A DNA stretch of 64,000 nucleotides, taken from the human T2T-CHM13v2.0 reference genome, Homo sapiens. Shown piece after piece: positions 1 to 41,680 of this stretch. A program made the translations under genes and the position numbers. Below the pieces are notes generated by a model. It was not told the DNA's origin. It ran no database searches and worked only from the letters and a program-made list of their open reading frames with translations. Location: NCBI RefSeq assembly GCF_009914755.1, contig NC_060946.1; one strand, 5' to 3'. Positions within the stretch are counted from its first letter, which is position 1, and the number at the start of each line of letters is the position of its first letter.

Positions 1-39
1 AAATTCTTTTAGTCAGACTGAGAATGGCAAAGCCTCAAT

Positions 40-1806: not shown

Positions 1807-1867
1807 AACACCCGGTGTTACTAAAACCCCCCAAAAATATGGTTTCCCCCTGTGGGTAAGCCTACAG

Positions 1868-2195
1868 TGTGGATGAATCTTGAAAATATTGTGCTACGTG
1901 TTATGTCAGTCATAACAGCTCACCTATTGTGCAATTCCGTTTATAGGAAATGTCCACAATATGGAAATCTATGCATATGGGGTTGATCGCACTAGGTAGT
2001 TGCTACCTAGGGCTGAGGGTCAGGGAGAGGGTTTGAGACAGAATGAGGAGTGACTAATGTCTACAGGGTTTTTCTCTGGTCGGGGGTGATAAGACGTTCT
2101 ACAATGGATTGCGAATTAAAATTGAATGTGCACAACCACAGGTATACTAAAAGCCACTCAATTCATGACTTTTAATGGGGGAATCTTATGTGGCG
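1868..2195 (+). mobile_element. Old L1M (L1MB-like) 3' UTR fragment (present in every unit; truncated in the last)
   Basis: tggatgaatcttgaaaatattgtgct...attccgtttataggaaatgtcca...tgcacaac...tatactaaaagccact motifs. Confidence 0.7.
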
Positions 2196-2402
2196 CACTC
2201 TTAGGGAGACCACGGCAGACATAGTGAGAGAGAAAAAGGCGAGTATATATCTGAAACGGAGGCAGAAACAGAGAGAATGAAAAGCCCTGTGAATGGAAGG
2301 GAGAGCGAAAAGGGAAAATGGTCCTATTTACAAATGACAGATGTGAAACTGGGGTTCACATCAACAGTGTCACTGCCAGGAAGGAGGGTGATGCTAGCCA
2401 TG

Positions 2403-5240
2403 TCACCGGTAGTGTGTCCCGCAGGGACGCCGTCCTGCTGGAGCGTCATGCCAGCATGGGCTCTGGCAGCCACGTGGGCCAGCAGGAGGGTCCCGCTGCA
2501 CAGCTGTGGGGTGAGGATAGACTGGGTGGTGATATCGGCCATGACAGGGGCCTCTTCTGCTGGCAAGAGTGTGACAGTAGCAAGTAGATGGACAGGCCTG
2601 CGTGTGAGGACGGAATGCAGGAGCGGCTCTTGTGTGGCTGGGTGTGGGGCCATCACAGGAACCGTGGAGTAATGGCCAGGTAACTGCGTCATGTGGGCTA
2701 GAAGATTGGCCAGGGCTTCGAACAGAAGGACAATGACGGGGAGTAGCTGTCAGGCCCTGGGAGTGTCTGAGTGTAAGTGGAGATGGGTTTGGGGTCACTG
2801 AGGGATGCGTGGGAGCCATCCCTGTATAGGTACAGGTCATAGGGAGATAGTCTCGTGTGGCCTGTGAGTGTCTAGGGTTGTCCTGGGTGCCTGGGGCTGA
2901 CTGTGGCAGAAATCTGGGGAAGGCTGGAGAGAAGCTGGGAGACCCAGGAGAGTCCCTGAAGGCAGGGGGTGAAGAGGTGCAAGAAATGGGGGAGGGTTGC
3001 AGTAAGGTCCGTGAGTTTGTAGGTGATTCCTGGGTGCGGGAAGCTGACTCCAGGTGAAATCTGGAGATGGTTGGAGAGCAGCTGAGAGAGACAGAAGAGT
3101 CTCTGAGGGCTGGGGATGAGAACATGAGGGAGACTGGGGAGTAAGTCAGTGAAATTCGTGAGTTCGGTGGTGTATCGTGGGTGCCTGGAACTGACTCCAG
3201 CTGGAATCTAGAGAAGTTTTGAGAGTAGCTGCAAGAGACACAAGAGTCCCTGTGGGATGAGGGCAAAGACCTGAGAGAGACCAGGGAGGACGTCAGTGAA
3301 GTCTGTGAGTCCGTAGGTGATTCTGGAGTGTGGGAGGCTGACTCTCGCTGAAATCTGGGCGTGGTGGGGGAGTAGCTGGGACAGACAGGAGAGTCCCAGG
3401 GGTCTGGGGGTGAAGACATGAGAGAGACTGGGGAGTAACTCAGTGAAACTGCTGAGTTTGTAGGTGATACCTGGGTGCCTGGAACTGACTCACGCTGAAA
3501 TCTGGGCATGGTTGGAGAGTAGCTGGGACACACAGGAGAGTCCCTGAGGGCTGGGGGTGAAGACGTGAGAGAGACTGGAGAGTAATTGAGTGAAATTGGT
3601 GAGTTTGGTGGTGATTCCTGGGTGCCTGGAACTGACTCCCGCTGAAGTGTGGGCGTGGTTGGAGAGTAGCTGGGACACACAGGAGAGTCCCTGAGGGTTG
3701 GAGATAAAGACGTGCTAGAGACTGAGGAGTAACTGAGTGAAATTGGTGAGTTTGGTGGTGATTCCGGGGTGCCTGGAACTGACTCCAGCTGCAATGTGGG
3801 CGTGGTTGGAGAGTAGCTGGGACAGACGGGAGAGTCCCTGAGTGATGGTGAAGACATGAGAGAGACTGGGGAGTAACGTAGTGAAATTGGTGAGTTTGGT
3901 GGTGATTTCTGGGTGCCCGCAATGGACTCCCGCTGAAGTGTGGGCGTGTTTGGAGAGTAGCTGGGACAGACAGGCGAGTCCCTGAGGGTTGGAGATAAAG
4001 ACGTGCTAGAGACTGGGGAGTAACTCAGTGAAAGTGGTGGGCTTGGCGGTGATCCCTGGGTTCCTGGAACTGACCCGCGCTGAAATGTGGGCGTGGTTGG
4101 AGAGTAGCTGGGACAGACTGGAGGGTCCGTAAGGGCTGGGGGTGAAGACGTGAGAGAGACTGCCCAGGATCTCACTGAGGTCTGTGAGTTTGTAGGTGTT
4201 TCTGGGGTGTGGGGTACAGACTGCCGCGGAAATCTGGGCGTGGTTGGAGAGTAGCTGGGACAGACAGGAGAGTCATGGGTGGCTGGGGGTGAGCTGCTGG
4301 ATGATGGCAGTAAGAACATATGGTATATTATTGATGAATGAGGTGACTGTGAAGAATCTCCAGAGGAGGACACGGGAGAACACAATGACATGAGTGACTG
4401 TCCTGCTTGGTTAGGAAAGGGAAACGTAAAGCTGTGGAATTCTGTTGATGATGGATGTGAGAGTGGTGAAGCCCTGCGGGATGATGTAGAGTACTTCCAC
4501 ATCCCTGGTGAGGAGCTGCCCGTTGGGTCTGAGTTTCTGGGAGGGGAGAGGGAGAAGCTGGGTGAGGCAGGCATGAATCTTGAGGAGTCAGGGCTGGGGG
4601 ACCGCTCATATTCTCCCGAGACCTGTGAGTCTCTGGGGGACTCCTGGGTGCATGGGGCTGACTCCCGCAGGAACCTGGGGATGGCTGGAGAGTAACTGGG
4701 AGCCACAGGAGAGTCCCTGAGGCCTGGGGGTGAAGAGACGAAAGACACAGGGGTGGAGCACCGTGAGGCCCGTGAGTTTGTAGGTGATTCCTGGGTGTGG
4801 GGGGCTGACTCCAGCTGAAATCTGGGGTTGTTTGGAGAGTAGCTGGGAGACACAGGAGACCCCCCGAGAGCTGGGGGTGAGCTGCTGGGTGATGGCAGTA
4901 AGAACATGTGGTATATTATTGATGAACGTGGGGACTCTGAGGAATCCTCAGAGGAGGACACGGGAGAGCCCGATGGCTTCATTGATTGCCCATCACGGTG
5001 AGGACAGGGAAATGCGAGCTTGTGGGATTCTGGTGATGACAGAGGTGAGTGTGGTGAAGCCCTAGGGGATGGTGAATGGCAGCTCCGGATCCCTGGTGAG
5101 GAGCTTCCCCTTAAGCCTGAGCTTCTGAGAGGGGAGAGGGAGAAGCTGGGTGAGGCTCGCATGGACCTTGGGGAGTCCGGGCTGGGGGACCGTTCATAAG
5201 AAGAGCCAGACAAGACCCTACTGTTCTTAGGTGCAGACAT
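2403..5240 (-). CDS. Candidate 945-aa Ser/Pro/Thr-rich disordered protein with 49-aa (147-bp) repeats containing YSPTTP motifs, copy 1
   Basis: 2838-bp stop-free frame; ATG with A at -3 (ctaATCATGt); repeat spacing is 147 bp with a single 144-bp (one-codon) variant; core promoter upstream. Translation is not demonstrated. Confidence 0.7.
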   Translation of the reverse strand: MSAPKNSRVLSGSSYERSPSPDSPRSMRASPSFSLSPLRSSGLRGSSSPGIRSCHSPSPRASPHSPLSSPESHKLAFPCPHRDGQSMKPSGSPVSSSEDSSESPRSSIIYHMFLLPSPSSSPPALGGSPVSPSYSPNNPRFQLESAPHTQESPTNSRASRCSTPVSFVSSPPGLRDSPVAPSYSPAIPRFLRESAPCTQESPRDSQVSGEYERSPSPDSSRFMPASPSFSLSPPRNSDPTGSSSPGMWKYSTSSRRASPLSHPSSTEFHSFTFPFPNQAGQSLMSLCSPVSSSGDSSQSPHSSIIYHMFLLPSSSSSPPATHDSPVCPSYSPTTPRFPRQSVPHTPETPTNSQTSVRSWAVSLTSSPPALTDPPVCPSYSPTTPTFQRGSVPGTQGSPPSPPLSLSYSPVSSTSLSPTLRDSPVCPSYSPNTPTLQRESIAGTQKSPPNSPISLRYSPVSLMSSPSLRDSPVCPSYSPTTPTLQLESVPGTPESPPNSPISLSYSSVSSTSLSPTLRDSPVCPSYSPTTPTLQRESVPGTQESPPNSPISLNYSPVSLTSSPPALRDSPVCPSYSPTMPRFQRESVPGTQVSPTNSAVSLSYSPVSLMSSPPDPWDSPVCPSYSPTTPRFQRESASHTPESPTDSQTSLTSSLVSLRSLPSSHRDSCVSCSYSQNFSRFQLESVPGTHDTPPNSRISLTYSPVSLMFSSPALRDSSVSLSCSPTISRFHLESASRTQESPTNSRTLLQPSPISCTSSPPAFRDSPGSPSFSPAFPRFLPQSAPGTQDNPRHSQATRDYLPMTCTYTGMAPTHPSVTPNPSPLTLRHSQGLTATPRHCPSVRSPGQSSSPHDAVTWPLLHGSCDGPTPSHTRAAPAFRPHTQACPSTCYCHTLASRRGPCHGRYHHPVYPHPTAVQRDPPAGPRGCQSPCWHDAPAGRRPCGTHYR
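2860..4900. repeat. 147-bp periodic satellite block (ACRO1-like); also at ~9027-11067 and ~15190-17230
   Basis: The anchor agctggg(a) or a variant occurs at 2933, 3080, 3227, 3374, 3521, 3668, 3815, 3959, 4106, 4253, 4694 and 4841: spacing 147, once 144, once 3x147. The 147-bp unit and ANKRD20A/SNX18P context match recalled ACRO1. Confidence 0.85.
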
Positions 5241-5301
5241 GATTAGGAAACCTGCAGCTCCCAGGGGCCCCTACTAATTTTCTAACTCGCAGAAGGAAGG
5301 A

Positions 5302-5419
5302 GTGTGTGTGCGTGGGTGTGAGTGTGTGCGTGTGTGTGCGTGTGTGTGTCTGTGTGTGTGCGGTGTGAGGTATGTGCCCCTTAAGAAAATGGAAATCAAC
5401 CAACCAATGAGACAGACAC

Positions 5420-5452
<33 letters not shown>
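5302..5452. repeat. (TG)n and (CAGA)n microsatellites in the predicted 5' UTR/intron
   Basis: Directly visible; unit 2 has one fewer CAGA, which gives the 6163-bp period. Confidence 0.95.
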
Positions 5453-5573
5453 GATTCACTTGCCCAAGTGTTCTGTCCTGTCCTCTGAATCCGCTTCCAA
5501 GTCGCAAGACGCCGTGAGCTCCAAGTCCACGCACAGTCCGCCAAACGCTCCGGCCGCTGATCCGCTCCGCGAA

Positions 5574-5670
5574 GATCTGAGTACAGGCCAGCCAGGGTGG
5601 GTTTAAATACCCTCGGGCGCAGCCTAGCAGCGGAAAGGGCGGAGCTTCACCCCTCCTTTCCGTCAGTCAC
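5574..5670 (-). promoter_or_regulatory. Core promoter of the 945-aa ORF, copy 1: TATTTAAA, Inr, GC box, CRE half-site
   Basis: Minus-strand TATTTAAA at 5609-5602 starts 31 nt upstream of Inr TCA(+1)GATC (A at 5578; matches YYANWYY). GGGCGGAG at 5637-5644; TGACG half-site near 5661-5665; CpG-dense 5490-5700. Confidence 0.7.
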
Positions 5671-6106
5671 CCCCAACTTTCCCAGGCTACACCTCGTAGG
5701 AAACTGTTCTCCTGCTTTGATTTCATGCGCCACCTTTGGGACAATCTAAGAACTTCCAAGTTTTCTTGGCCAGATATATTAGGAATTGTATGCACTGAAA
5801 CACTGAAAAGCAACTAGTGGTTCTGTGGTTCCCACGTTGTGGTTTTGACACCAGCAGCATCCTTGCCACAATCAAACCCCGGAGATCCACAGATCTGTGT
5901 TGTAACAAGACCTCCCCCTGACCCTGATGCATGGCAGTTTAAGAAGTCTTTCCGTGTAAGCGAAAAGACTTTGAAGAAAGGGTGGAGATATGCGTTGTAT
6001 AAACATTCTTTTGCTCCGGAACCACGTGGAGTCTTGGGAGCCAGTTGGGTGGAGCATTCGTTGGATGAGGGTGCTCGGGTTCGGAATATCAAGGTGTGGT
6101 TCCAGA

Positions 6107-6117
6107 TAATCCAATCA
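6107..6117 (+). promoter_or_regulatory. DUX4-type double-homeodomain motif TAATCCAATCA (also 12270-12280 and 18437-18447)
   Basis: Exact match to TAAYYYAATCA, ~530 bp upstream of the predicted TSS. Confidence 0.55.
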
Positions 6118-8569
6118 TCTAATTAAGATTCCAGTTGTGCTCATCTGTTTTAAAATTCCGTTTGGGTAAATTCTTTTAGTCAGACTGAGAATGGCAAAGC
6201 CTCAATCCCAATTTCCAGGGAGGGTTGACAGCCTCAGGTGGAGTTGATCACCAATAGCCTATGGTTTAACCCATCATGCCTATAGAATGAGGTCTCCATA
6301 AAAACCCAAAAGGACTGGGTTCAGGGAGCTTCTGGATAACACTTCCTGGAAGGTAGTGCGCCCCTCCCCACATGCCGGGCCCCACATTTATTTCTGAGCT
6401 TTTTGCAATGTCCGCTAAAATACAACGGCAAATGTGAGTGTTTCCCTGAGTGCTGTGAGCTCTTCCAGCAAATGAATGCAACTAAATCTGGGAGTGGTGG
6501 CAACCTGATTTATAGCAAGTTGCTGAGAAGCACAGGTGAAACAACGTAGGGCTTCCCATTGTTATTAGTGTGGGAGGCCTGTCTGGCGGGACTCGGCCCT
6601 TTGGAATCTAATGCTATGTCCCGGTAGATAGCGTCACCATTGAATTAGAAGACACACATATGTTGAGAATAATCTTTCTGGTCATTTGCCGCATGTCCTA
6701 TTTACAATATGTAATCAAATTCTTTATCCTGACCTTATGGCACCTGGGTTGAGAACCATGATTTGAACCAAACATTGGTCTGTCACTTTCGGAGTTGGAA
6801 ACTTTATTTTGCCTTTAGCGTTTTGCTATTGCTTTTTCGTTTTCTTTTGTTTCGTTTCGTTTCTAAGTGCTGGGGTATACGTGCAGGATGGGCAGATTTG
6901 TTACTAAGGTAAACGTGTGCCATGGTGGTTTGCTGCACCTGTCAACCCATCACCTAGGTATTAAGCCCAGCATGCAGGAGCTGTTTTTCTTAACGCTCTG
7001 CCTCCCGAAAGGCCCCAGTGTGTGTTGTTCCCCTTCCTGTGTCCATGTGATCTCATTTTTCAGCTCCCATTATAAGTGAGAATGTGGCGTTTGGTTTTCT
7101 TTCCCTGGATTAGTTTGCTGAGGATAATGACCACACATCACCACTGATTTGTTTTTTAGTATAAAGAGTAGTATTTTATTGAATAAGATTTGCTCACAGA
7201 AAAATAAGCTTAAATCTACAATGAATGCCAGACTCTACAGCAGAAAGCAATTTTCTCACTTTTCCACACACAATGGTTCCTACTAAGTGAAAAAAGCCAT
7301 AAAATTTCATTCACAAATGTACTACTCTGTCTCAAAACATCTCACATAATCATGCACTGTACTAAAGCCATTAGATCAGTTCTTCAGTCAGGTTAAAGAA
7401 GTATCCCTCTAATAACTGACTTTTATAATGCTATCAGTAGGCACTCCCAATCAGTCTGCCATTGTTAATGGTGTACAGCATTACTGCATACACTGGAATT
7501 GATGACACCCATATCCACGGACAAACCGAGACTTATGATGGTTTGATTCATGATTTTTCAACGTTATGATGGGTTTATTGGAATATTAGATGCGTTTCTG
7601 AGTTACACTGGGTTTATGAGTATGCGACCCTATACTCCAGAAACAGCTGTATAAGGAAAAACAGGTGTACCTAATAAAAATATGCTTAGTGACTTGGGAT
7701 AAACCAATAGATGTTCACAACTGATGGAGAGCCGTGAAAGAGAGATAGCGGTAAATAGTTACAATAACACAAGTTTCCTGCACCTGTCGAGGATTTCCCC
7801 AAAAAAACGCAGAATGTGGGATGCACCTAAGGCATATGAAAGAGAGAGGGCAGAAGGAGTAAGAGAGAAATAGGAGGAAGGAAGGAAGGAAGGAAAGAAG
7901 GAAGGTAGGAAGGAAGGAAGGAAGGAAAGAAGGAAGGAAGGAAGGAAGCAAAGAAGGACGAACGGAAGGAGGAAACACCCGGTGTTACTAAAACCCCCAA
8001 AAAATATGGTTTCCCCCTGTGGGTAAGCCTACAGTGTGGATGAATCTTGAAAATATTGTGCTACGTGTTATGTCAGTCATAACAGTTCACCTATTGTGCA
8101 ATTCCGTTTATAGGAAATGTCCACAATATGGAAATCTATGCATATGGGGTTGATCGCACTAGGTAGTTGCTACCTAGGGCTGAGGGTCAGGGAGAGGGTT
8201 TGAGACAGAATGAGGAGTGACTAATGTCTACAGGGTTTTTCTCTGGTCGGGGGTGATAAGACGTTCTACAATGGATTGCGAATTAAAATTGAATGTGCAC
8301 AACCACAGGTATACTAAAAGCCACTCAATTCATGACTTTTAATGGGGGAATCTTATGTGGCGCACTCTTAGGGAGACCACGGCAGACATAGTGAGAGAGA
8401 AAAAGGCGAGTATATATCTGAAACGGAGGCAGAAACAGAGAGAATGAAAAGCCCTGTGAATGGAAGGGAGAGCGAAAAGGGAAAATGGTCCTATTTACAA
8501 ATGACAGATGTGAAACTGGGGTTCACATCAACAGTGTCACTGCCAGGAAGGAGGGTGATGCTAGCCATG

Positions 8570-11407
8570 TCACCGGTAGTGTGTCCCGCAGGGACGCCGT
8601 CCTGCTGGAGCGTCATGCCAGCATGGGCTCTGGCAGCCACGTGGGCCAGCAGGAGGGTCCCGCTGCACAGCTGTGGGGTGAGGATAGACTGGGTGGTGAT
8701 ATCGGCCATGACAGGGGCCTCTTCTGCTGGCAAGAGTGTGACAGTAGCAAGTAGATGGACAGGCCTGCGTGTGAGGACGGAATGCAGGAGCGGCTCTTGT
8801 GTGGCTGGGTGTGGGGCCATCACAGGAACCGTGGAGTAATGGCCAGGTAACTGCGTCATGTGGGCTAGAAGATTGGCCAGGGCTTCGAACAGAAGGACAA
8901 TGACGGGGAGTAGCTGTCAGGCCCTGGGAGTGTCTGAGTGTAAGTGGAGATGGGTTTGGGGTCACTGAGGGATGCGTGGGAGCCATCCCTGTATAGGTAC
9001 AGGTCATAGGGAGATAGTCTCGTGTGGCCTGTGAGTGTCTAGGGTTGTCCTGGGTGCCTGGGGCTGACTGTGGCAGAAATCTGGGGAAGGCTGGAGAGAA
9101 GCTGGGAGACCCAGGAGAGTCCCTGAAGGCAGGGGGTGAAGAGGTGCAAGAAATGGGGGAGGGTTGCAGTAAGGTCCGTGAGTTTGTAGGTGATTCCTGG
9201 GTGCGGGAAGCTGACTCCAGGTGAAATCTGGAGATGGTTGGAGAGCAGCTGAGAGAGACAGAAGAGTCTCTGAGGGCTGGGGATGAGAACATGAGGGAGA
9301 CTGGGGAGTAAGTCAGTGAAATTCGTGAGTTCGGTGGTGTATCGTGGGTGCCTGGAACTGACTCCAGCTGGAATCTAGAGAAGTTTTGAGAGTAGCTGCA
9401 AGAGACACAAGAGTCCCTGTGGGATGAGGGCAAAGACCTGAGAGAGACCAGGGAGGACGTCAGTGAAGTCTGTGAGTCCGTAGGTGATTCTGGAGTGTGG
9501 GAGGCTGACTCTCGCTGAAATCTGGGCGTGGTGGGGGAGTAGCTGGGACAGACAGGAGAGTCCCAGGGGTCTGGGGGTGAAGACATGAGAGAGACTGGGG
9601 AGTAACTCAGTGAAACTGCTGAGTTTGTAGGTGATACCTGGGTGCCTGGAACTGACTCACGCTGAAATCTGGGCATGGTTGGAGAGTAGCTGGGACACAC
9701 AGGAGAGTCCCTGAGGGCTGGGGGTGAAGACGTGAGAGAGACTGGAGAGTAATTGAGTGAAATTGGTGAGTTTGGTGGTGATTCCTGGGTGCCTGGAACT
9801 GACTCCCGCTGAAGTGTGGGCGTGGTTGGAGAGTAGCTGGGACACACAGGAGAGTCCCTGAGGGTTGGAGATAAAGACGTGCTAGAGACTGAGGAGTAAC
9901 TGAGTGAAATTGGTGAGTTTGGTGGTGATTCCGGGGTGCCTGGAACTGACTCCAGCTGCAATGTGGGCGTGGTTGGAGAGTAGCTGGGACAGACGGGAGA
10001 GTCCCTGAGTGATGGTGAAGACATGAGAGAGACTGGGGAGTAACGTAGTGAAATTGGTGAGTTTGGTGGTGATTTCTGGGTGCCCGCAATGGACTCCCGC
10101 TGAAGTGTGGGCGTGTTTGGAGAGTAGCTGGGACAGACAGGCGAGTCCCTGAGGGTTGGAGATAAAGACGTGCTAGAGACTGGGGAGTAACTCAGTGAAA
10201 GTGGTGGGCTTGGCGGTGATCCCTGGGTTCCTGGAACTGACCCGCGCTGAAATGTGGGCGTGGTTGGAGAGTAGCTGGGACAGACTGGAGGGTCCGTAAG
10301 GGCTGGGGGTGAAGACGTGAGAGAGACTGCCCAGGATCTCACTGAGGTCTGTGAGTTTGTAGGTGTTTCTGGGGTGTGGGGTACAGACTGCCGCGGAAAT
10401 CTGGGCGTGGTTGGAGAGTAGCTGGGACAGACAGGAGAGTCATGGGTGGCTGGGGGTGAGCTGCTGGATGATGGCAGTAAGAACATATGGTATATTATTG
10501 ATGAATGAGGTGACTGTGAAGAATCTCCAGAGGAGGACACGGGAGAACACAATGACATGAGTGACTGTCCTGCTTGGTTAGGAAAGGGAAACGTAAAGCT
10601 GTGGAATTCTGTTGATGATGGATGTGAGAGTGGTGAAGCCCTGCGGGATGATGTAGAGTACTTCCACATCCCTGGTGAGGAGCTGCCCGTTGGGTCTGAG
10701 TTTCTGGGAGGGGAGAGGGAGAAGCTGGGTGAGGCAGGCATGAATCTTGAGGAGTCAGGGCTGGGGGACCGCTCATATTCTCCCGAGACCTGTGAGTCTC
10801 TGGGGGACTCCTGGGTGCATGGGGCTGACTCCCGCAGGAACCTGGGGATGGCTGGAGAGTAACTGGGAGCCACAGGAGAGTCCCTGAGGCCTGGGGGTGA
10901 AGAGACGAAAGACACAGGGGTGGAGCACCGTGAGGCCCGTGAGTTTGTAGGTGATTCCTGGGTGTGGGGGGCTGACTCCAGCTGAAATCTGGGGTTGTTT
11001 GGAGAGTAGCTGGGAGACACAGGAGACCCCCCGAGAGCTGGGGGTGAGCTGCTGGGTGATGGCAGTAAGAACATGTGGTATATTATTGATGAACGTGGGG
11101 ACTCTGAGGAATCCTCAGAGGAGGACACGGGAGAGCCCGATGGCTTCATTGATTGCCCATCACGGTGAGGACAGGGAAATGCGAGCTTGTGGGATTCTGG
11201 TGATGACAGAGGTGAGTGTGGTGAAGCCCTAGGGGATGGTGAATGGCAGCTCCGGATCCCTGGTGAGGAGCTTCCCCTTAAGCCTGAGCTTCTGAGAGGG
11301 GAGAGGGAGAAGCTGGGTGAGGCTCGCATGGACCTTGGGGAGTCCGGGCTGGGGGACCGTTCATAAGAAGAGCCAGACAAGACCCTACTGTTCTTAGGTG
11401 CAGACAT
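8570..11407 (-). CDS. Candidate 945-aa repeat protein, copy 2
   Basis: Translation in the ORF track appears identical to copy 1. Confidence 0.7.
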   Translation of the reverse strand: MSAPKNSRVLSGSSYERSPSPDSPRSMRASPSFSLSPLRSSGLRGSSSPGIRSCHSPSPRASPHSPLSSPESHKLAFPCPHRDGQSMKPSGSPVSSSEDSSESPRSSIIYHMFLLPSPSSSPPALGGSPVSPSYSPNNPRFQLESAPHTQESPTNSRASRCSTPVSFVSSPPGLRDSPVAPSYSPAIPRFLRESAPCTQESPRDSQVSGEYERSPSPDSSRFMPASPSFSLSPPRNSDPTGSSSPGMWKYSTSSRRASPLSHPSSTEFHSFTFPFPNQAGQSLMSLCSPVSSSGDSSQSPHSSIIYHMFLLPSSSSSPPATHDSPVCPSYSPTTPRFPRQSVPHTPETPTNSQTSVRSWAVSLTSSPPALTDPPVCPSYSPTTPTFQRGSVPGTQGSPPSPPLSLSYSPVSSTSLSPTLRDSPVCPSYSPNTPTLQRESIAGTQKSPPNSPISLRYSPVSLMSSPSLRDSPVCPSYSPTTPTLQLESVPGTPESPPNSPISLSYSSVSSTSLSPTLRDSPVCPSYSPTTPTLQRESVPGTQESPPNSPISLNYSPVSLTSSPPALRDSPVCPSYSPTMPRFQRESVPGTQVSPTNSAVSLSYSPVSLMSSPPDPWDSPVCPSYSPTTPRFQRESASHTPESPTDSQTSLTSSLVSLRSLPSSHRDSCVSCSYSQNFSRFQLESVPGTHDTPPNSRISLTYSPVSLMFSSPALRDSSVSLSCSPTISRFHLESASRTQESPTNSRTLLQPSPISCTSSPPAFRDSPGSPSFSPAFPRFLPQSAPGTQDNPRHSQATRDYLPMTCTYTGMAPTHPSVTPNPSPLTLRHSQGLTATPRHCPSVRSPGQSSSPHDAVTWPLLHGSCDGPTPSHTRAAPAFRPHTQACPSTCYCHTLASRRGPCHGRYHHPVYPHPTAVQRDPPAGPRGCQSPCWHDAPAGRRPCGTHYR

Positions 11408-11736
11408 GATTAGGAAACCTGCAGCTCCCAGGGGCCCCTACTAATTTTCTAACTCGCAGAAGGAAGGAGTGTGTGTGCGTGGGTGTGAGTGTGTGCGTGT
11501 GTGTGCGTGTGTGTGTCTGTGTGTGTGCGGTGTGAGGTATGTGCCCCTTAAGAAAATGGAAATCAACCAACCAATGAGACAGACACACAGACAGACAGAC
11601 AGACAGACAGACAGAGATTCACTTGCCCAAGTGTTCTGTCCTGTCCTCTGAATCCGCTTCCAAGTCGCAAGACGCCGTGAGCTCCAAGTCCACGCACAGT
11701 CCGCCAAACGCTCCGGCCGCTGATCCGCTCCGCGAA

Positions 11737-11833
11737 GATCTGAGTACAGGCCAGCCAGGGTGGGTTTAAATACCCTCGGGCGCAGCCTAGCAGCGGAAAG
11801 GGCGGAGCTTCACCCCTCCTTTCCGTCAGTCAC
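11737..11833 (-). promoter_or_regulatory. Core promoter, copy 2
   Basis: Same motifs; TATA at 11772-11765. Confidence 0.7.
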
Positions 11834-14732
11834 CCCCAACTTTCCCAGGCTACACCTCGTAGGAAACTGTTCTCCTGCTTTGATTTCATGCGCCACCTTT
11901 GGGACAATCTAAGAACTTCCAAGTTTTCTTGGCCAGATATATTAGGAATTGTATGCACTGAAACACTGAAAAGCAACTAGTGGTTCTGTGGTTCCCACGT
12001 TGTGGTTTTGACACCAGCAGCATCCTTGCCACAATCAAACCCCGGAGATCCACAGATCTGTGTTGTAACAAGACCTCCCCCTGACCCTGATGCATGGCAG
12101 TTTAAGAAGTCTTTCCGTGTAAGCGAAAAGACTTTGAAGAAAGGGTGGAGATATGCGTTGTATAAACATTCTTTTGCTCCGGAACCACGTGGAGTCTTGG
12201 GAGCCAGTTGGGTGGAGCATTCGTTGGATGAGGGTGCTCGGGTTCGGAATATCAAGGTGTGGTTCCAGATAATCCAATCATCTAATTAAGATTCCAGTTG
12301 TGCTCATCTGTTTTAAAATTCCGTTTGGGTAAATTCTTTTAGTCAGACTGAGAATGGCAAAGCCTCAATCCCAATTTCCAGGGAGGGTTGACAGCCTCAG
12401 GTGGAGTTGATCACCAATAGCCTATGGTTTAACCCATCATGCCTATAGAATGAGGTCTCCATAAAAACCCAAAAGGACTGGGTTCAGGGAGCTTCTGGAT
12501 AACACTTCCTGGAAGGTAGTGCGCCCCTCCCCACATGCCGGGCCCCACATTTATTTCTGAGCTTTTTGCAATGTCCGCTAAAATACAACGGCAAATGTGA
12601 GTGTTTCCCTGAGTGCTGTGAGCTCTTCCAGCAAATGAATGCAACTAAATCTGGGAGTGGTGGCAACCTGATTTATAGCAAGTTGCTGAGAAGCACAGGT
12701 GAAACAACGTAGGGCTTCCCATTGTTATTAGTGTGGGAGGCCTGTCTGGCGGGACTCGGCCCTTTGGAATCTAATGCTATGTCCCGGTAGATAGCGTCAC
12801 CATTGAATTAGAAGACACACATATGTTGAGAATAATCTTTCTGGTCATTTGCCGCATGTCCTATTTACAATATGTAATCAAATTCTTTATCCTGACCTTA
12901 TGGCACCTGGGTTGAGAACCATGATTTGAACCAAACATTGGTCTGTCACTTTCGGAGTTGGAAACTTTATTTTGCCTTTAGCGTTTTGCTATTGCTTTTT
13001 CGTTTTCTTTTGTTTCGTTTCGTTTCTAAGTGCTGGGGTATACGTGCAGGATGGGCAGATTTGTTACTAAGGTAAACGTGTGCCATGGTGGTTTGCTGCA
13101 CCTGTCAACCCATCACCTAGGTATTAAGCCCAGCATGCAGGAGCTGTTTTTCTTAACGCTCTGCCTCCCGAAAGGCCCCAGTGTGTGTTGTTCCCCTTCC
13201 TGTGTCCATGTGATCTCATTTTTCAGCTCCCATTATAAGTGAGAATGTGGCGTTTGGTTTTCTTTCCCTGGATTAGTTTGCTGAGGATAATGACCACACA
13301 TCACCACTGATTTGTTTTTTAGTATAAAGAGTAGTATTTTATTGAATAAGATTTGCTCACAGAAAAATAAGCTTAAATCTACAATGAATGCCAGACTCTA
13401 CAGCAGAAAGCAATTTTCTCACTTTTCCACACACAATGGTTCCTACTAAGTGAAAAAAGCCATAAAATTTCATTCACAAATGTACTACTCTGTCTCAAAA
13501 CATCTCACATAATCATGCACTGTACTAAAGCCATTAGATCAGTTCTTCAGTCAGGTTAAAGAAGTATCCCTCTAATAACTGACTTTTATAATGCTATCAG
13601 TAGGCACTCCCAATCAGTCTGCCATTGTTAATGGTGTACAGCATTACTGCATACACTGGAATTGATGACACCCATATCCACGGACAAACCGAGACTTATG
13701 ATGGTTTGATTCATGATTTTTCAACGTTATGATGGGTTTATTGGAATATTAGATGCGTTTCTGAGTTACACTGGGTTTATGAGTATGCGACCCTATACTC
13801 CAGAAACAGCTGTATAAGGAAAAACAGGTGTACCTAATAAAAATATGCTTAGTGACTTGGGATAAACCAATAGATGTTCACAACTGATGGAGAGCCGTGA
13901 AAGAGAGATAGCGGTAAATAGTTACAATAACACAAGTTTCCTGCACCTGTCGAGGATTTCCCCAAAAAAACGCAGAATGTGGGATGCACCTAAGGCATAT
14001 GAAAGAGAGAGGGCAGAAGGAGTAAGAGAGAAATAGGAGGAAGGAAGGAAGGAAGGAAAGAAGGAAGGTAGGAAGGAAGGAAGGAAGGAAAGAAGGAAGG
14101 AAGGAAGGAAGCAAAGAAGGACGAACGGAAGGAGGAAACACCCGGTGTTACTAAAACCCCCAAAAAATATGGTTTCCCCCTGTGGGTAAGCCTACAGTGT
14201 GGATGAATCTTGAAAATATTGTGCTACGTGTTATGTCAGTCATAACAGTTCACCTATTGTGCAATTCCGTTTATAGGAAATGTCCACAATATGGAAATCT
14301 ATGCATATGGGGTTGATCGCACTAGGTAGTTGCTACCTAGGGCTGAGGGTCAGGGAGAGGGTTTGAGACAGAATGAGGAGTGACTAATGTCTACAGGGTT
14401 TTTCTCTGGTCGGGGGTGATAAGACGTTCTACAATGGATTGCGAATTAAAATTGAATGTGCACAACCACAGGTATACTAAAAGCCACTCAATTCATGACT
14501 TTTAATGGGGGAATCTTATGTGGCGCACTCTTAGGGAGACCACGGCAGACATAGTGAGAGAGAAAAAGGCGAGTATATATCTGAAACGGAGGCAGAAACA
14601 GAGAGAATGAAAAGCCCTGTGAATGGAAGGGAGAGCGAAAAGGGAAAATGGTCCTATTTACAAATGACAGATGTGAAACTGGGGTTCACATCAACAGTGT
14701 CACTGCCAGGAAGGAGGGTGATGCTAGCCATG

Positions 14733-17570
14733 TCACCGGTAGTGTGTCCCGCAGGGACGCCGTCCTGCTGGAGCGTCATGCCAGCATGGGCTCTGGCAGC
14801 CACGTGGGCCAGCAGGAGGGTCCCGCTGCACAGCTGTGGGGTGAGGATAGACTGGGTGGTGATATCGGCCATGACAGGGGCCTCTTCTGCTGGCAAGAGT
14901 GTGACAGTAGCAAGTAGATGGACAGGCCTGCGTGTGAGGACGGAATGCAGGAGCGGCTCTTGTGTGGCTGGGTGTGGGGCCATCACAGGAACCGTGGAGT
15001 AATGGCCAGGTAACTGCGTCATGTGGGCTAGAAGATTGGCCAGGGCTTCGAACAGAAGGACAATGACGGGGAGTAGCTGTCAGGCCCTGGGAGTGTCTGA
15101 GTGTAAGTGGAGATGGGTTTGGGGTCACTGAGGGATGCGTGGGAGCCATCCCTGTATAGGTACAGGTCATAGGGAGATAGTCTCGTGTGGCCTGTGAGTG
15201 TCTAGGGTTGTCCTGGGTGCCTGGGGCTGACTGTGGCAGAAATCTGGGGAAGGCTGGAGAGAAGCTGGGAGACCCAGGAGAGTCCCTGAAGGCAGGGGGT
15301 GAAGAGGTGCAAGAAATGGGGGAGGGTTGCAGTAAGGTCCGTGAGTTTGTAGGTGATTCCTGGGTGCGGGAAGCTGACTCCAGGTGAAATCTGGAGATGG
15401 TTGGAGAGCAGCTGAGAGAGACAGAAGAGTCTCTGAGGGCTGGGGATGAGAACATGAGGGAGACTGGGGAGTAAGTCAGTGAAATTCGTGAGTTCGGTGG
15501 TGTATCGTGGGTGCCTGGAACTGACTCCAGCTGGAATCTAGAGAAGTTTTGAGAGTAGCTGCAAGAGACACAAGAGTCCCTGTGGGATGAGGGCAAAGAC
15601 CTGAGAGAGACCAGGGAGGACGTCAGTGAAGTCTGTGAGTCCGTAGGTGATTCTGGAGTGTGGGAGGCTGACTCTCGCTGAAATCTGGGCGTGGTGGGGG
15701 AGTAGCTGGGACAGACAGGAGAGTCCCAGGGGTCTGGGGGTGAAGACATGAGAGAGACTGGGGAGTAACTCAGTGAAACTGCTGAGTTTGTAGGTGATAC
15801 CTGGGTGCCTGGAACTGACTCACGCTGAAATCTGGGCATGGTTGGAGAGTAGCTGGGACACACAGGAGAGTCCCTGAGGGCTGGGGGTGAAGACGTGAGA
15901 GAGACTGGAGAGTAATTGAGTGAAATTGGTGAGTTTGGTGGTGATTCCTGGGTGCCTGGAACTGACTCCCGCTGAAGTGTGGGCGTGGTTGGAGAGTAGC
16001 TGGGACACACAGGAGAGTCCCTGAGGGTTGGAGATAAAGACGTGCTAGAGACTGAGGAGTAACTGAGTGAAATTGGTGAGTTTGGTGGTGATTCCGGGGT
16101 GCCTGGAACTGACTCCAGCTGCAATGTGGGCGTGGTTGGAGAGTAGCTGGGACAGACGGGAGAGTCCCTGAGTGATGGTGAAGACATGAGAGAGACTGGG
16201 GAGTAACGTAGTGAAATTGGTGAGTTTGGTGGTGATTTCTGGGTGCCCGCAATGGACTCCCGCTGAAGTGTGGGCGTGTTTGGAGAGTAGCTGGGACAGA
16301 CAGGCGAGTCCCTGAGGGTTGGAGATAAAGACGTGCTAGAGACTGGGGAGTAACTCAGTGAAAGTGGTGGGCTTGGCGGTGATCCCTGGGTTCCTGGAAC
16401 TGACCCGCGCTGAAATGTGGGCGTGGTTGGAGAGTAGCTGGGACAGACTGGAGGGTCCGTAAGGGCTGGGGGTGAAGACGTGAGAGAGACTGCCCAGGAT
16501 CTCACTGAGGTCTGTGAGTTTGTAGGTGTTTCTGGGGTGTGGGGTACAGACTGCCGCGGAAATCTGGGCGTGGTTGGAGAGTAGCTGGGACAGACAGGAG
16601 AGTCATGGGTGGCTGGGGGTGAGCTGCTGGATGATGGCAGTAAGAACATATGGTATATTATTGATGAATGAGGTGACTGTGAAGAATCTCCAGAGGAGGA
16701 CACGGGAGAACACAATGACATGAGTGACTGTCCTGCTTGGTTAGGAAAGGGAAACGTAAAGCTGTGGAATTCTGTTGATGATGGATGTGAGAGTGGTGAA
16801 GCCCTGCGGGATGATGTAGAGTACTTCCACATCCCTGGTGAGGAGCTGCCCGTTGGGTCTGAGTTTCTGGGAGGGGAGAGGGAGAAGCTGGGTGAGGCAG
16901 GCATGAATCTTGAGGAGTCAGGGCTGGGGGACCGCTCATATTCTCCCGAGACCTGTGAGTCTCTGGGGGACTCCTGGGTGCATGGGGCTGACTCCCGCAG
17001 GAACCTGGGGATGGCTGGAGAGTAACTGGGAGCCACAGGAGAGTCCCTGAGGCCTGGGGGTGAAGAGACGAAAGACACAGGGGTGGAGCACCGTGAGGCC
17101 CGTGAGTTTGTAGGTGATTCCTGGGTGTGGGGGGCTGACTCCAGCTGAAATCTGGGGTTGTTTGGAGAGTAGCTGGGAGACACAGGAGACCCCCCGAGAG
17201 CTGGGGGTGAGCTGCTGGGTGATGGCAGTAAGAACATGTGGTATATTATTGATGAACGTGGGGACTCTGAGGAATCCTCAGAGGAGGACACGGGAGAGCC
17301 CGATGGCTTCATTGATTGCCCATCACGGTGAGGACAGGGAAATGCGAGCTTGTGGGATTCTGGTGATGACAGAGGTGAGTGTGGTGAAGCCCTAGGGGAT
17401 GGTGAATGGCAGCTCCGGATCCCTGGTGAGGAGCTTCCCCTTAAGCCTGAGCTTCTGAGAGGGGAGAGGGAGAAGCTGGGTGAGGCTCGCATGGACCTTG
17501 GGGAGTCCGGGCTGGGGGACCGTTCATAAGAAGAGCCAGACAAGACCCTACTGTTCTTAGGTGCAGACAT
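14733..17570 (-). CDS. Candidate 945-aa repeat protein, copy 3
   Basis: Translation in the ORF track appears identical to copy 1. Confidence 0.7.
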   Translation of the reverse strand: MSAPKNSRVLSGSSYERSPSPDSPRSMRASPSFSLSPLRSSGLRGSSSPGIRSCHSPSPRASPHSPLSSPESHKLAFPCPHRDGQSMKPSGSPVSSSEDSSESPRSSIIYHMFLLPSPSSSPPALGGSPVSPSYSPNNPRFQLESAPHTQESPTNSRASRCSTPVSFVSSPPGLRDSPVAPSYSPAIPRFLRESAPCTQESPRDSQVSGEYERSPSPDSSRFMPASPSFSLSPPRNSDPTGSSSPGMWKYSTSSRRASPLSHPSSTEFHSFTFPFPNQAGQSLMSLCSPVSSSGDSSQSPHSSIIYHMFLLPSSSSSPPATHDSPVCPSYSPTTPRFPRQSVPHTPETPTNSQTSVRSWAVSLTSSPPALTDPPVCPSYSPTTPTFQRGSVPGTQGSPPSPPLSLSYSPVSSTSLSPTLRDSPVCPSYSPNTPTLQRESIAGTQKSPPNSPISLRYSPVSLMSSPSLRDSPVCPSYSPTTPTLQLESVPGTPESPPNSPISLSYSSVSSTSLSPTLRDSPVCPSYSPTTPTLQRESVPGTQESPPNSPISLNYSPVSLTSSPPALRDSPVCPSYSPTMPRFQRESVPGTQVSPTNSAVSLSYSPVSLMSSPPDPWDSPVCPSYSPTTPRFQRESASHTPESPTDSQTSLTSSLVSLRSLPSSHRDSCVSCSYSQNFSRFQLESVPGTHDTPPNSRISLTYSPVSLMFSSPALRDSSVSLSCSPTISRFHLESASRTQESPTNSRTLLQPSPISCTSSPPAFRDSPGSPSFSPAFPRFLPQSAPGTQDNPRHSQATRDYLPMTCTYTGMAPTHPSVTPNPSPLTLRHSQGLTATPRHCPSVRSPGQSSSPHDAVTWPLLHGSCDGPTPSHTRAAPAFRPHTQACPSTCYCHTLASRRGPCHGRYHHPVYPHPTAVQRDPPAGPRGCQSPCWHDAPAGRRPCGTHYR

Positions 17571-17749
17571 GATTAGGAAACCTGCAGCTCCCAGGGGCCC
17601 CTACTAATTTTCTAACTCGCAGAAGGAAGGAGTGTGTGTGCGTGGGTGTGAGTGTGTGCGTGTGTGTGCGTGTGTGTGTCTGTGTGTGTGCGGTGTGAGG
17701 TATGTGCCCCTTAAGAAAATGGAAATCAACCAACCAATGAGACAGACAC

Positions 17750-17782
<33 letters not shown>

Positions 17783-17903
17783 GATTCACTTGCCCAAGTG
17801 TTCTGTCCTGTCCTCTGAATCCGCTTCCAAGTCGCAAGACGCCGTGAGCTCCAAGTCCACGCACAGTCCGCCAAACGCTCCGGCCGCTGATCCGCTCCGC
17901 GAA

Positions 17904-18000
17904 GATCTGAGTACAGGCCAGCCAGGGTGGGTTTAAATACCCTCGGGCGCAGCCTAGCAGCGGAAAGGGCGGAGCTTCACCCCTCCTTTCCGTCAGTCAC
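17904..18000 (-). promoter_or_regulatory. Core promoter, copy 3
   Basis: Same motifs; TATA at 17939-17932. Confidence 0.7.
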
Positions 18001-21000
18001 CCCCAACTTTCCCAGGCTACACCTCGTAGGAAACTGTTCTCCTGCTTTGATTTCATGCGCCACCTTTGGGACAATCTAAGAACTTCCAAGTTTTCTTGGC
18101 CAGATATATTAGGAATTGTATGCACTGAAACACTGAAAAGCAACTAGTGGTTCTGTGGTTCCCACGTTGTGGTTTTGACACCAGCAGCATCCTTGCCACA
18201 ATCAAACCCCGGAGATCCACAGATCTGTGTTGTAACAAGACCTCCCCCTGACCCTGATGCATGGCAGTTTAAGAAGTCTTTCCGTGTAAGCGAAAAGACT
18301 TTGAAGAAAGGGTGGAGATATGCGTTGTATAAACATTCTTTTGCTCCGGAACCACGTGGAGTCTTGGGAGCCAGTTGGGTGGAGCATTCGTTGGATGAGG
18401 GTGCTCGGGTTCGGAATATCAAGGTGTGGTTCCAGATAATCCAATCATCTAATTAAGATTCCAGTTGTGCTCATCTGTTTTAAAATTCCGTTTGGGTAAA
18501 TTCTTTTAGTCAGACTGAGAATGGCAAAGCCTCAATCCCAATTTCCAGGGAGGGTTGACAGCCTCAGGTGGAGTTGATCACCAGTAGCCTATGGTTTAAC
18601 CCATCATGCCTATAGAATGAGGTCTCCATAAAAACCCAAAAGGACTGGGTTCAGGGAGCTTCTGGATAACACTTCCTGGAAGGTAGTGCGCCCCTCCCCA
18701 CATGCCGGGCCCCACATTTATTTCTGAACCTTTTGCAATGTCCGCTAAAATACAACGGCAAATGTGAGTGTTTCCCTGAGTGCTGTGAGCTCTTCCAGCA
18801 AATGAATGCAACTAAATCTGGGAGTGGTGGCAACCTGATTTATAGCAAGTTGCTGAGAAGCACAGGTGAAACAACGTAGGGCTTCCCATTGTTATTAGTG
18901 TGGGAGGCCTGTCTGGCGGGACTCGGCCCTTTGGAATCTAATGCTATGTCCCGGTAGATAGCGTCACCATTGAATTAGAAGACACACATATGTTGAGAAT
19001 AATCTTTCTGGTCATTTGCCGCATGTCCTATTTACAATATGTAATCAAATTCTTTATCCTGACCTTATGGCACCTGGGTTGAGAACCATGATTTGAACCA
19101 AACATTGGTCTGTCACTTTCGGAGTTGGAAACTTTATTTTGCCTTTAGCGTTTTGCTATTGCTTTTTCGTTTTCTTTTGTTTCGTTTCGTTTCTAAGTGC
19201 TGGGGTATACGTGCAGGATGGGCAGATTTGTTACTAAGGTAAACGTGTGCCATGGTGGTTTGCTGCACCTGTCAACCCATCACCTAGGTATTAAGCCCAG
19301 CATGCAGTAGCTGTTTTTCTTAACGCTCTGCCTCCCGAAAGGCCCCAGTGTGTGTTGTTCCCCTTCCTGTGTCCATGTGATCTCATTTTTCAGCTCCCAT
19401 TATAAGTGAGAATGTGGCGTTTGGTTTTCTTTCCCTGGATTAGTTTGCTGAGGATAATGACCACACATCACCACTGATTTGTTTTTTAGTATAAAGAGTA
19501 GTATTTTATTGAATAAGATTTGCTCACAGAAAAATAAGCTTAAATCTACAATGAATGCCAGACTCTACAGCAGAAAGCAATTTTCTCACTTTTCCACACA
19601 CAATGGTTCCTACTAAGTGAAAAAAGCCATAAAATTTCATTCACAAATGTACTACTCTGTCTCAAAACATCTCACATACTCTTGCACTGTACTAAAGCCA
19701 TTAGATCAGTTCTTCAGTCAGGTTAAAGAAGTATCCCTCTAATAACTGACTTTTATAATGCTATCAGTAGGCACTCCCAATCAGTCTGCCATTGTTAATG
19801 GTGTACAGCATTACTGCATACACTGGAATTGATGACACCCATATCCACGGACAAACCGAGACTTATGATGGTTTGATTCATGATTTTTCAACGTTATGAT
19901 GGGTTTATTGGAATATTAGATGCGTTTCTGAGTTACACTGGGTTTATGAGTATGCGACCCTATACTCCAGAAACAGCTGTATAAGGAAAAACAGGTGTAC
20001 CTAATAAAAATATGCTTAGTGACTTGGGATAAACCAATAGATGTTCACAACTGATGGAGAGCCGTGAAAGAGAGATAGCGGTAAATAGTTACAATAACAC
20101 AAGTTTCCTGCACCTGTCGAGGATTTCCCCAAAAAAACGCAGAATGTGGGATGCACCTAAGGCATATGAAAGAGAGAGGGCAGAAGGAGTAAGAGAGAAA
20201 TAGGAGGAAGGAAGGAAGGAAGGAAAGAAGGAAGGTAGGAAGGAAGGAAGGAAAGAAGGAAGGAAGGAAGGAAGGAAGCAAAGAAGGACGAACGGAAGGA
20301 GGAAACACCCGGTGTTACTAAAACCCCCAAAAAATATGGTTTCCCCCTGTGGGTAAGCCTACAGTGTGGATGAATCTTGAAAATATTGTGCTACGTGTTA
20401 TGTCAGTCATAACAGCTCACCTATTGTGCAATTCCGTTTATAGGAAATGTCCACAATATGGAAATCTATGCATATGGGGTTGATCGCACTAGGTAGTTGC
20501 TACCTAGGGCTGAGGGTCAGGGAGGGGGTTTGAGACCGAATGAGGAGTGACTAATGTCTACAGGGTTTTTCTCTGGTCGGGGGTGATAAGACGTTCTACA
20601 ATGGATTGCGAATTAAAATTGAATGTGCACAACCACAGGTATACTAAAAGCCACTCAATTCATGACTTTTAATGGGGGAAAAGTGAAAAGAAGCAATCAC
20701 AGGTATATGAAAATTTAAGTTCTTGTTTAATATTAGGTTTTTTTTTTTGCTTTACTAACAAAGCATAGTCCAAATGACATGACCTTTCAGACTATACCTT
20801 TAGAATCCAATAGATCATAATTTTATATGTAATTTTTAAAACATCATAACCAGTTATGAAACTTAAGATATTCTTACTATCTCGAGTAACTATTAGTTAT
20901 TCTAGTAATTCTTAGTATCTCTAGTAACTCATAGCTGTCTTTACCCTTGGAATTGAGGCAAGAAATTTTCAGAATTATCTTGCTGTTTTATTTATATAAC

Positions 21001-41122: not shown

Positions 41123-41680
<558 letters not shown>

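What the first reader, a model, noticed from the sequence alone, without database searches (positions are those of the whole stretch)
2403..17940. A 147-bp 'satellite' array that looks like a tandem multicopy protein-coding gene (945-aa ORF per 6.17-kb unit)
Seen: each full unit carries a 2838-bp stop-free minus-strand frame spanning the whole 147-bp (49-codon) block plus non-repetitive N- and C-terminal ends. Monomers are visibly diverged, yet none has a stop, and the only length variant among the anchors is exactly -3 nt (3815 to 3959). The ATG is the first one after a TATA/Inr promoter. Known (recalled): ACRO1 is catalogued as a non-coding 147-bp satellite within a composite repeat on acrocentric arms. 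Inference: the satellite is the coding repeat of a hidden gene family organised like D4Z4/DUX4 or RS447/USP17L, missed because it is repeat-masked and multi-mapping.
Basis: partly seen in the sequence, partly recalled or inferred. Interest (0 to 1): 0.95.

Follow-up and report, generated by a model that had tools for sequence, protein, structure and literature searches.

The report
Human satellite DNA hides gene family
A human repeat catalogued as non-coding satellite DNA (ACRO1) carries one unbroken reading frame of about 1,000 codons in most copies examined and has protein relatives in marmoset and rabbit databases, so it is likely a hidden gene family of over a hundred copies, predicted to be switched on in early embryos and to make a floppy protein resembling the tail of RNA polymerase II.

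Summary
Three identical 945-codon minus-strand ORFs lie at the stated places, one per 6.17-kb ACRO unit. Each has a TATA box, an initiator 29 nt downstream, no upstream ATG and a DUX4-type motif. In CHM13 the start site occurs 227 times. Of 150 scored copies, 110 have full-length frames that step by about 49 codons, 23 are short and 17 are unclear. A marmoset model is colinear (71% identity over 528 codons, one in-frame gap), where neutral decay predicts 5-8 stops plus 5-8 frameshifts. A rabbit protein shares the 49-residue period and a Cys/His motif, so the family predates primates. The 147-bp monomer is 7 x 21 bp, seven Pol II CTD-like heptads. Against: dN/dS is about 1, dispersed copies and some distal chr15/chr21 copies are broken, the rabbit protein has no YSP, and no RNA or peptide data could be tested. 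Partly anticipated: Boots 2020 saw the CTD likeness, and a 2025 preprint calls it a putative coding gene in one line. Verdict: likely a real, uncharacterised macrosatellite gene family (about 0.7 that it is translated); a CTD-like role is inferred.

The parts
2403..5240 (-). ORF copy 1, 945 aa, 24% Ser and 18% Pro, 5 Lys, predicted disordered
8570..11407 (-). ORF copy 2, identical to copy 1
14733..17570 (-). ORF copy 3, identical to copy 1
2881..4292 (-). 147-bp (49-codon, 7 x 21 bp) ACRO1 monomer block of unit 1; also 9048-10459 and 15211-16622
4026..5198 (-). Internal duplication of about 196 codons (aa 15-210 and 211-405), gap-free at about 25% divergence
2523..2594 (-). Cys/His cluster (aa 883-906) kept in the marmoset, titi monkey and rabbit proteins and in unnamed record P0041
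5602..5609 (-). TATA-like box of unit 1; also 11765-11772 and 17932-17939; present in 34 of 34 loci checked
5574..5580 (-). Initiator-consensus match 29 nt after the TATA box (predicted start of transcription); present in 34 of 34 loci
5252..5459 (-). Possible 5' UTR intron holding the two microsatellites: a single GT donor at 5459 and several candidate AG acceptors (inferred only)
6107..6117 (+). DUX4-type 11-mer (consensus recalled), about 500 bp upstream of the TATA box; also 12270 and 18437; in 32 of 34 loci; 0.027 expected per shuffled unit
2171..2176 (-). ATTAAA poly(A)-signal candidate about 230 nt after the stop, repeated in each unit and at the array edge (20668-20673)
1..20680 (.). 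Extent of the ACRO composite array in the window (three full ORF units plus partial flanks); a further, broken unit lies just before the window (L010)

Best explanation
Each 6.2-kb ACRO unit holds an intact reading frame behind a TATA/initiator and a DUX4-type motif, and is likely a gene that DUX4 switches on around the 4-cell stage to make a predicted disordered Ser/Pro protein, which would act as a Pol II CTD-like phosphorylation scaffold or decoy. Shown: the ORF, the promoter-like elements, the 7 x 7-residue repeat register, the copy ladder (945/993/1042 aa read directly; 1091 and longer inferred from frame lengths), marmoset and rabbit relatives, and a conserved C-terminal Cys/His cluster. 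From the literature: ACRO1 RNA peaks at the 4-cell stage and DUX4 activates ACRO1 transcription; the strand is not stated in the passages read. Inferred: a minus-strand mRNA of about 3.4 kb from 5578 to just past 2171; its translation (about 0.7); and phosphorylation of its 93 [ST]P sites by proline-directed CTD kinases, with titration or concentration of CTD readers while the embryonic genome is activated. High copy number would supply a short, large burst. Selection would act on frame, length and Ser/Pro spacing, not exact residues, which would explain dN/dS near 1.
For: Frame retention beyond neutral expectation: monomers P(0 stops) 0.004-0.016; human versus marmoset 377 of 528 identical codon columns with one 1-aa gap against 5-8 stops and 5-8 frameshifts expected; a 196-codon internal duplication with no internal gap and dN/dS 0.70. 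Copy survey: 110 of 150 scored copies on the 49-codon ladder and 28 of 30 best-matching loci read as intact. Deep homologs: rabbit P0044 (named by nr) matches the non-repeat C-terminus (E 3e-15 pairwise; z 14 against shuffles) and its top period is 49 aa; unnamed P0041 aligns end to end with the short chr2 copy (38%, E 2e-46). CTD likeness: the six highest autocorrelation lags below 147 are the six multiples of 21; 13 of 14 PDB hits of the repeat block are RPB1, best E 2.6e-6; SP pairs are enriched at 7/14/21/28 spacing. Promoter elements in 34 of 34 loci and the DUX4 motif in 32 of 34. Expression literature: PMC6545021, PMC8990217, PMC5832720. AlphaFold mean pLDDT 38, 829 of 945 residues under 50, consistent with disorder, though the alignment was only 11 rows.
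Against: dN/dS is 1.08-1.41 among 23 distinct intact human ORFs and not different from 1 (2 x delta lnL = 1.1); it is 0.92-1.18 among monomers. Marmoset identity (71%) is no higher than neutral simulation gives (74-82%). Within human copies, stop depletion is weak: 6 distinct nonsense variants against 10.6 expected. ORF indels (5 per 322 substitutions, 3 frameshifting) are only modestly rarer than flank indels (12 per 341). Five of 6 hand-picked dispersed or distal copies are broken. There is no perfect YSPTSPS and no two Tyr-heptads in a row. YSP counts fall from 14 in human to 5 in marmoset, 1 in P0041 and 0 in rabbit, so the CTD likeness is not what is best conserved. The marmoset sequence is a predicted model with a local frame switch near residues 606-672. 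The same strand blocks Pol II elongation in HeLa reporters, and no stable transcript was found there (PMC7714431). No RNA, ribosome or peptide data were testable.
Confidence: 0.45

Rival explanations
1. The units are translated genes, but the protein does not work through CTD mimicry. It is a generic disordered Ser/Pro spacer or condensate scaffold whose working part is the conserved Cys/His C-terminal cluster (possibly metal-binding) or the N-terminal block.
For: The Cys/His cluster is kept from human to rabbit while YSP is not. P0041 has a single monomer. The human chr2 copy (358 aa) keeps both ends in frame and has lost most repeats, and a near-identical intact record P0006 exists. In P0084 the same N-terminal block is joined to a DUX-like C-terminus instead.
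Against: Rabbit, marmoset and human all carry the 49-aa period, and primates keep a 7-residue sub-period. The human repeats give RPB1 as almost the only PDB match.
Confidence: 0.27
2. The family was coding in ancestral mammals and early primates but is a relic in humans. Frames stay open only because the arrays were amplified and homogenised recently from an intact copy, and little or no protein is made.
For: dN/dS about 1; weak stop and indel depletion within human copies; broken chr15/chr21 distal copies and chr19/chr1 copies; array copies differ by only 2-4%. The ape acrocentric preprint warns that gene conversion can keep or restore ORFs.
Against: The lineage leading to today's arrays had to stay open up to their recent common ancestor. 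Length changes among array copies fall on the 49-codon ladder. Promoter elements are intact in 34 of 34 loci. ACRO1 RNA is induced in embryos.
Confidence: 0.2
3. ACRO1 is a non-coding satellite whose RNA binds Pol II and silences itself, as Boots et al. propose; the long frame is a by-product of a C-rich, stop-poor monomer, perhaps captured recently from CTD mRNA.
For: SELEX enrichment and cis-silencing reported in PMC7714431. The strand is stop-poor in all three frames. No Pfam match: best E 0.3 for the window protein, none for 7 relatives.
Against: It does not explain the frame running through non-monomer ends with a fixed ATG and stop, colinearity with marmoset, or a rabbit protein with the same period and Cys/His motif. 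The rabbit protein also argues against a primate-only recent origin. The RNA effect can coexist with coding as a somatic brake.
Confidence: 0.08

Closest known systems
ACRO1 satellite / ACRO composite (ACRE, ACRO_Comp)
   Same: 147-bp monomer in a 6-kb unit on the acrocentrics and chr1, 2, 3, 4 and 19 (PMC7714431, PMC2588610). One FISH primer printed in PMC2588610 matches the window exactly at 4884-4903.
   Different: Described as gene-free (PMC2588610), as an RNA aptamer and primate-only (PMC7714431), or as holding a 'putative protein coding gene' in one line (PMC12746033). Here it has a full ATG-to-stop frame, a promoter layout and a non-primate relative.
D4Z4/DUX4 and RS447/USP17L macrosatellite genes
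   Same: One ORF per tandem unit, homogenised arrays with decayed dispersed copies, and a link to embryonic genome activation (D4Z4 from listings; RS447/USP17L recalled).
   Different: No folded domain or Pfam family; the inner satellite monomer is itself the coding repeat; amino acids evolve at the neutral rate; no protein has been shown.
RPB1 (POLR2A) C-terminal domain
   Same: Seven-residue register with SP at positions 2-3, YSPT[TM]P heptads, and best PDB hits to RPB1. Marmoset and rabbit models carry the name RPB1.
   Different: Not attached to a polymerase; heptads are degenerate, with Tyr in only 2 of 7; no perfect YSPTSPS; extra N-terminal block and Cys/His C-terminus.

Membership tests
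ACRO1 / ACRO composite | 147-bp monomer in 1.3-2.4-kb blocks inside a unit of about 6 kb | tested here: met
   definition from PMC7714431 section 7
ACRO1 / ACRO composite | Arrays on acrocentric short arms plus chr3 and chr4, scattered on chr1, 2, 19 | tested here: met
ACRO1 / ACRO composite | Sequence identity with the published repeat | tested here: met
   exact match of one 20-nt primer from PMC2588610 at 4884-4903, read by eye
ACRO1 / ACRO composite | Dfam match and L1PA10/MER21B/L1MB8 components | not testable with these tools
   no Dfam or RepeatMasker available; components named
Macrosatellite-encoded gene (D4Z4/DUX4 type) | One intact ORF per unit in most array copies | tested here: met
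   110 of 150 scored copies on the ladder, 23 short, 17 unclear; the sample is biased to copies close to the query
Macrosatellite-encoded gene (D4Z4/DUX4 type) | ORF kept in other species | tested here: met
   marmoset and rabbit protein models; their DNA was not seen
Macrosatellite-encoded gene (D4Z4/DUX4 type) | Purifying selection on amino acids (dN/dS below 1) | tested here: not met
   1.08-1.41 among paralogs, 0.92-1.18 among monomers, 0.70 for the internal duplication
Macrosatellite-encoded gene (D4Z4/DUX4 type) | Sense-strand mRNA and protein detected | not testable with these tools
   only repeat-level expression in papers
Direct DUX4 target | DUX4 motif near the promoter | tested here: met
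   32 of 34 loci, 0.027 expected per unit; consensus recalled
Direct DUX4 target | DUX4 binding and induction at this promoter | not testable with these tools
   secondary statements only; the primary paper was not held
RPB1 / Pol II CTD | Joined to the RPB1 catalytic body | tested here: not met
   no Pfam domain; PDB hits lie only in the CTD region
RPB1 / Pol II CTD | Tandem consensus YSPTSPS heptads | tested here: not met
   no perfect heptad; Tyr in heptads 1 and 5 of 7
RPB1 / Pol II CTD | Seven-residue SP periodicity in a disordered chain | tested here: met

The most novel reading that the evidence does not exclude
ACRO is a placental-mammal gene family, amplified to well over a hundred intact copies on human acrocentric arms, that DUX4 fires at embryonic genome activation to flood the nucleus with a free-standing Pol II CTD decoy. 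Its dose would vary between people and in Robertsonian carriers, and it would be re-expressed as an unrecognised protein and antigen in FSHD muscle and DUX4-positive cancers.
Probability: 0.3. Interest if true: 0.95.

Novelty: new variant of a known kind. Interest (0 to 1): 0.82.

Why it matters
If translated, this would be one of the largest protein-coding families in the human genome, with no gene call at these three copies in the RefSeq table supplied. It sits in the repeat described as the most acrocentric-specific in great apes, which peaks in 4-cell embryos and is reported to be DUX4-activated. It would give a reason why ACRO is kept on rDNA-bearing arms, add a candidate effector to embryonic genome activation and FSHD, and overturn the 'primate-only, non-coding' label. 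It is directly testable: existing DUX4-induction proteomics, embryo ribosome profiling and long-read RNA can be re-searched with this ORF.

Tried and rejected
Pfam: nothing for the window protein (best E 0.3) or for 7 relatives. ESM Atlas: the window protein's first hit is a 993-aa 'putative extensin-like' cluster of 70 members (score 0.94, low recognition), probably its own family, so it is not counted as independent evidence; P0041 gave no usable hit. AlphaFold gave no confident fold, so no fold search was run. dN/dS was expected to support coding and did not. The indel and nonsense spectra within human copies were weak. The three window copies were rejected as independent evidence. Many of the 81 representative-library hits are near-identical to human or read as frame mosaics, so they were not used as species evidence; P0005 is labelled Plasmodium but is 92-97% identical to the human ORF and was treated as contamination. 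Antisense and alternative-frame ORFs of 101-131 aa in the unit were not pursued. A recent primate-only origin from CTD mRNA was judged unlikely because of the rabbit protein; an older origin from POLR2A was not tested. A PDB search with P0084 found nothing. Only 36 of the 227 start-site copies were read as DNA.
Full report
OBSERVATION. Three minus-strand ORFs of 945 aa lie at 2403-5240, 8570-11407 and 14733-17570. They are identical in nucleotides, and whole units differ at only 3-6 bases plus one 4-base microsatellite step, so they count once. The array ends at 20680. The repeat block has a 147-bp period; anchor spacings are 147 except one of 144. The unit is the ACRO composite: its size, monomer and chromosome spread fit PMC7714431 and PMC2588610, and a primer printed in the latter matches 4884-4903 exactly (read by eye).

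GENE ANATOMY. On the minus strand a TATA-like box starts at 5609, an initiator-consensus match follows 29 nt later, and the first ATG is the ORF's. One GT donor at 5459 and several AG candidates suggest a 5' UTR intron (inferred). An ATTAAA lies about 230 nt past the stop. A DUX4-type 11-mer (consensus recalled) sits about 500 bp upstream of the TATA box in every window unit. Among 34 loci with enough upstream DNA, TATA, initiator and donor are present in 34, the DUX4 motif in 32, and no upstream ATG in 33; shuffling gives 0.027 motifs per unit. These loci are close relatives, so this shows retention, not independent origin.

THE PROTEIN. It is 24% Ser and 18% Pro, with 93 [ST]P sites and 5 Lys. 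It has no Pfam family, and AlphaFold gives mean pLDDT 38 on an 11-row alignment. Its layout is a duplicated N-terminal block of about 196 aa, nine to ten 49-aa monomers and a Cys/His-rich C-terminus. The six highest DNA autocorrelation lags below 147 are 21, 126, 105, 84, 42 and 63, so the monomer is seven heptads. Five of the seven usually have SP at positions 2-3, and two begin with Tyr. Thirteen of 14 PDB hits of the block are RPB1, all in the CTD region, best E 2.6e-6. No heptad is a perfect YSPTSPS.

COPIES IN CHM13. A 25-base start-site pattern (up to 2 mismatches) matches 227 places, and the reversed control none; only the first 100 were listed. Of the 30 best DNA matches, 28 read as intact ATG-to-stop ORFs of 944-945, 993 or 1041-1042 aa, and two are broken. 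A search with the C-terminal 165 aa scored 150 of 296 candidates. Of these, 110 have stop-free frames on the 49-codon ladder, 17 are unclear and 23 are short. Seventy-eight of the 110 fall in length classes that I confirmed by reading DNA; 32 (1100, 1101, 1149, 1248) are inferred from the ladder. Both samples favour copies close to the query. Of six further copies picked by hand, five are broken (two on chr19, one on chr1, one distal chr15, one distal chr21), and the chr2 copy is an intact 358-aa form that has lost most repeats in frame. This is the pattern of intact arrays with decaying outliers.

IS THE FRAME UNDER SELECTION? Amino acids are not conserved above neutral. dN/dS is 1.08-1.41 for 23 distinct intact ORFs over 709 codons, variable sites are 57/62/60 by codon position, and fixing the ratio at 1 costs 0.55 log units. 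Among monomers it is 0.92-1.18 (that 12-row set includes two half-homologous rows). Within 12-13 human copies, broken ones included, 6 distinct nonsense variants were seen against 10.6 expected, and 5 ORF indels per 322 substitutions against 12 per 341 in flanks; this is weak. The frame itself is retained in deeper comparisons. Ten monomers (tree length 1.23) should carry 5.6-6.9 stops; P(0) is 0.004-0.016 in 1000 runs of each of three models, or up to 0.039 for any frame. The model over-predicts one control frame (12-16 against 5 seen), so these values are approximate. The internal duplication aligns over 196 codons without an internal gap at pN 0.22 and pS 0.29. The marmoset model P0004 (832 aa) has the same start and is 71% identical over 528 non-array codons with one 1-aa gap; neutral evolution at 10-16% divergence gives 5-8 stops (P(0) at most 0.005 in 200 runs) and 5-8 frameshifts at the flank indel rate. 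P0004 is a predicted model with a frame switch near residues 606-672, which may be real, an assembly error or a modelled intron.

OLDER THAN PRIMATES. A profile search of 1.84 billion representatives gave 81 hits, many near-identical to human or frame mosaics. Several are distant. P0044 is named RPB1 of Oryctolagus cuniculus by nr. It matches the non-repeat C-terminus (36%, E 3e-15 pairwise; z 14 against 500 shuffles), keeps the Cys/His cluster, and its strongest period is 49 aa. Unnamed P0041 aligns end to end with the chr2 form (38%, E 2e-46) and has one monomer. This contradicts, at the protein level, the statement in PMC7714431 that no non-primate homologue exists. It rests on one named non-primate record whose DNA I could not see. 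YSP counts are 14, 5, 1 and 0 in human, marmoset, P0041 and rabbit, which weakens the CTD-mimic reading.

HOW IT LIKELY WORKS. Papers report that ACRO1 RNA peaks at the 4-cell stage (PMC6545021), rises in the early embryo after sperm hypomethylation (PMC5832720), and is activated by DUX4 (PMC8990217; FSHD preprint; both cite other work). The strand is not given in what I read. My best reading is a DUX4-fired multicopy gene making a disordered, proline-directed phospho-scaffold that competes for or gathers Pol II CTD factors during genome activation (0.45). Coding with another function is 0.27, a human relic 0.20, and non-coding 0.08. The cis-silencing by this strand's RNA in HeLa (PMC7714431) may be a somatic brake and does not exclude coding.

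PRIOR ART. PMC7714431 (abstract, passages and section 7 read) translated the consensus monomer, found 23 of 49 residues identical to the CTD, and read it as an RNA-binding code; 'open reading' does not occur in its text. [quoted passage not shown] A term search of its two held supplements found nothing more, and its Supplementary Figure 11 was not seen. PMC2588610 lists ACRO among arrays without genes (passages). The T2T repeat preprint, the ape acrocentric preprint, PMC12058530, PMC13558733 and PMC6581058, all seen as passages only, do not describe the ORF there. Databases already hold predicted proteins. Ten searches found no study of the full ORF, its promoter, its copy integrity or its non-primate relatives. 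The library lacks most subscription papers, one primary DUX4 paper was not held, and bioRxiv supplements were closed.

VERDICT. Translation and function remain unshown. It is a new variant of the macrosatellite-gene kind, hinted at but not worked out in the papers I could search. Interest 0.82.

Noticed in passing
P0084 (unnamed record), residues 494-591; L035:492-1418: A distant relative joins the ACRO-type N-terminal block and its own 103/83/20-aa repeats to a C-terminus 46% identical to the end of a human DUX4-like pseudogene (E 2e-12 pairwise). The DUX label is recalled from the homeodomain-like and C-terminal motifs. It may be a natural fusion with a DUX activation domain; source unknown.
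   Followed up: partly
L033 (G000:C2:161739000-161743300): The chr2 copy keeps an intact 358-aa frame with most repeats lost, its promoter and its DUX4 motif; a near-identical intact 361-aa record (P0006) exists. It resembles the short layout of P0041 and is a uniquely mappable copy for expression tests.
   Followed up: partly
L036 (chr15 distal) and L037 (chr21 distal): A subfamily with longer monomer blocks is frameshifted or carries an early stop, yet the shifted frame stays open for hundreds of codons, so frame length alone misleads there.
   Followed up: partly
window 20668-20681: The array ends 7 bases upstream of the unit's ATTAAA, and the predicted lncRNA LOC128966699 starts at 20681 on the other strand.
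   Followed up: no
P0041, P0088, P0051 N-terminal extensions: The stretch before the start Met translates like the human CA-repeat leader, suggesting that the 5' leader is conserved with the ORF.
   Followed up: no
window ORF, P0004, P0041, P0044: Lysine is nearly absent in all four (5 of 945, 4 of 832, 1 of 355, 1 of 575); whether this exceeds what the base composition gives was not tested.
   Followed up: no
G000:C19:47232560 and 47284466: Two inverted, broken copies 52 kb apart on chr19 are the most diverged human copies read (5-8% from the window).
   Followed up: partly
window 41219-41683 (+) and 60095-60634 (+): The only other ATG ORFs of 150 aa or more; the first lies in the annotated ANKRD20A12-like pseudogene exon.
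   Followed up: no
P0005: A protein labelled Plasmodium ovale is 92-97% identical to the human ORF over about 300 aa, which looks like human contamination of that assembly.
   Followed up: no
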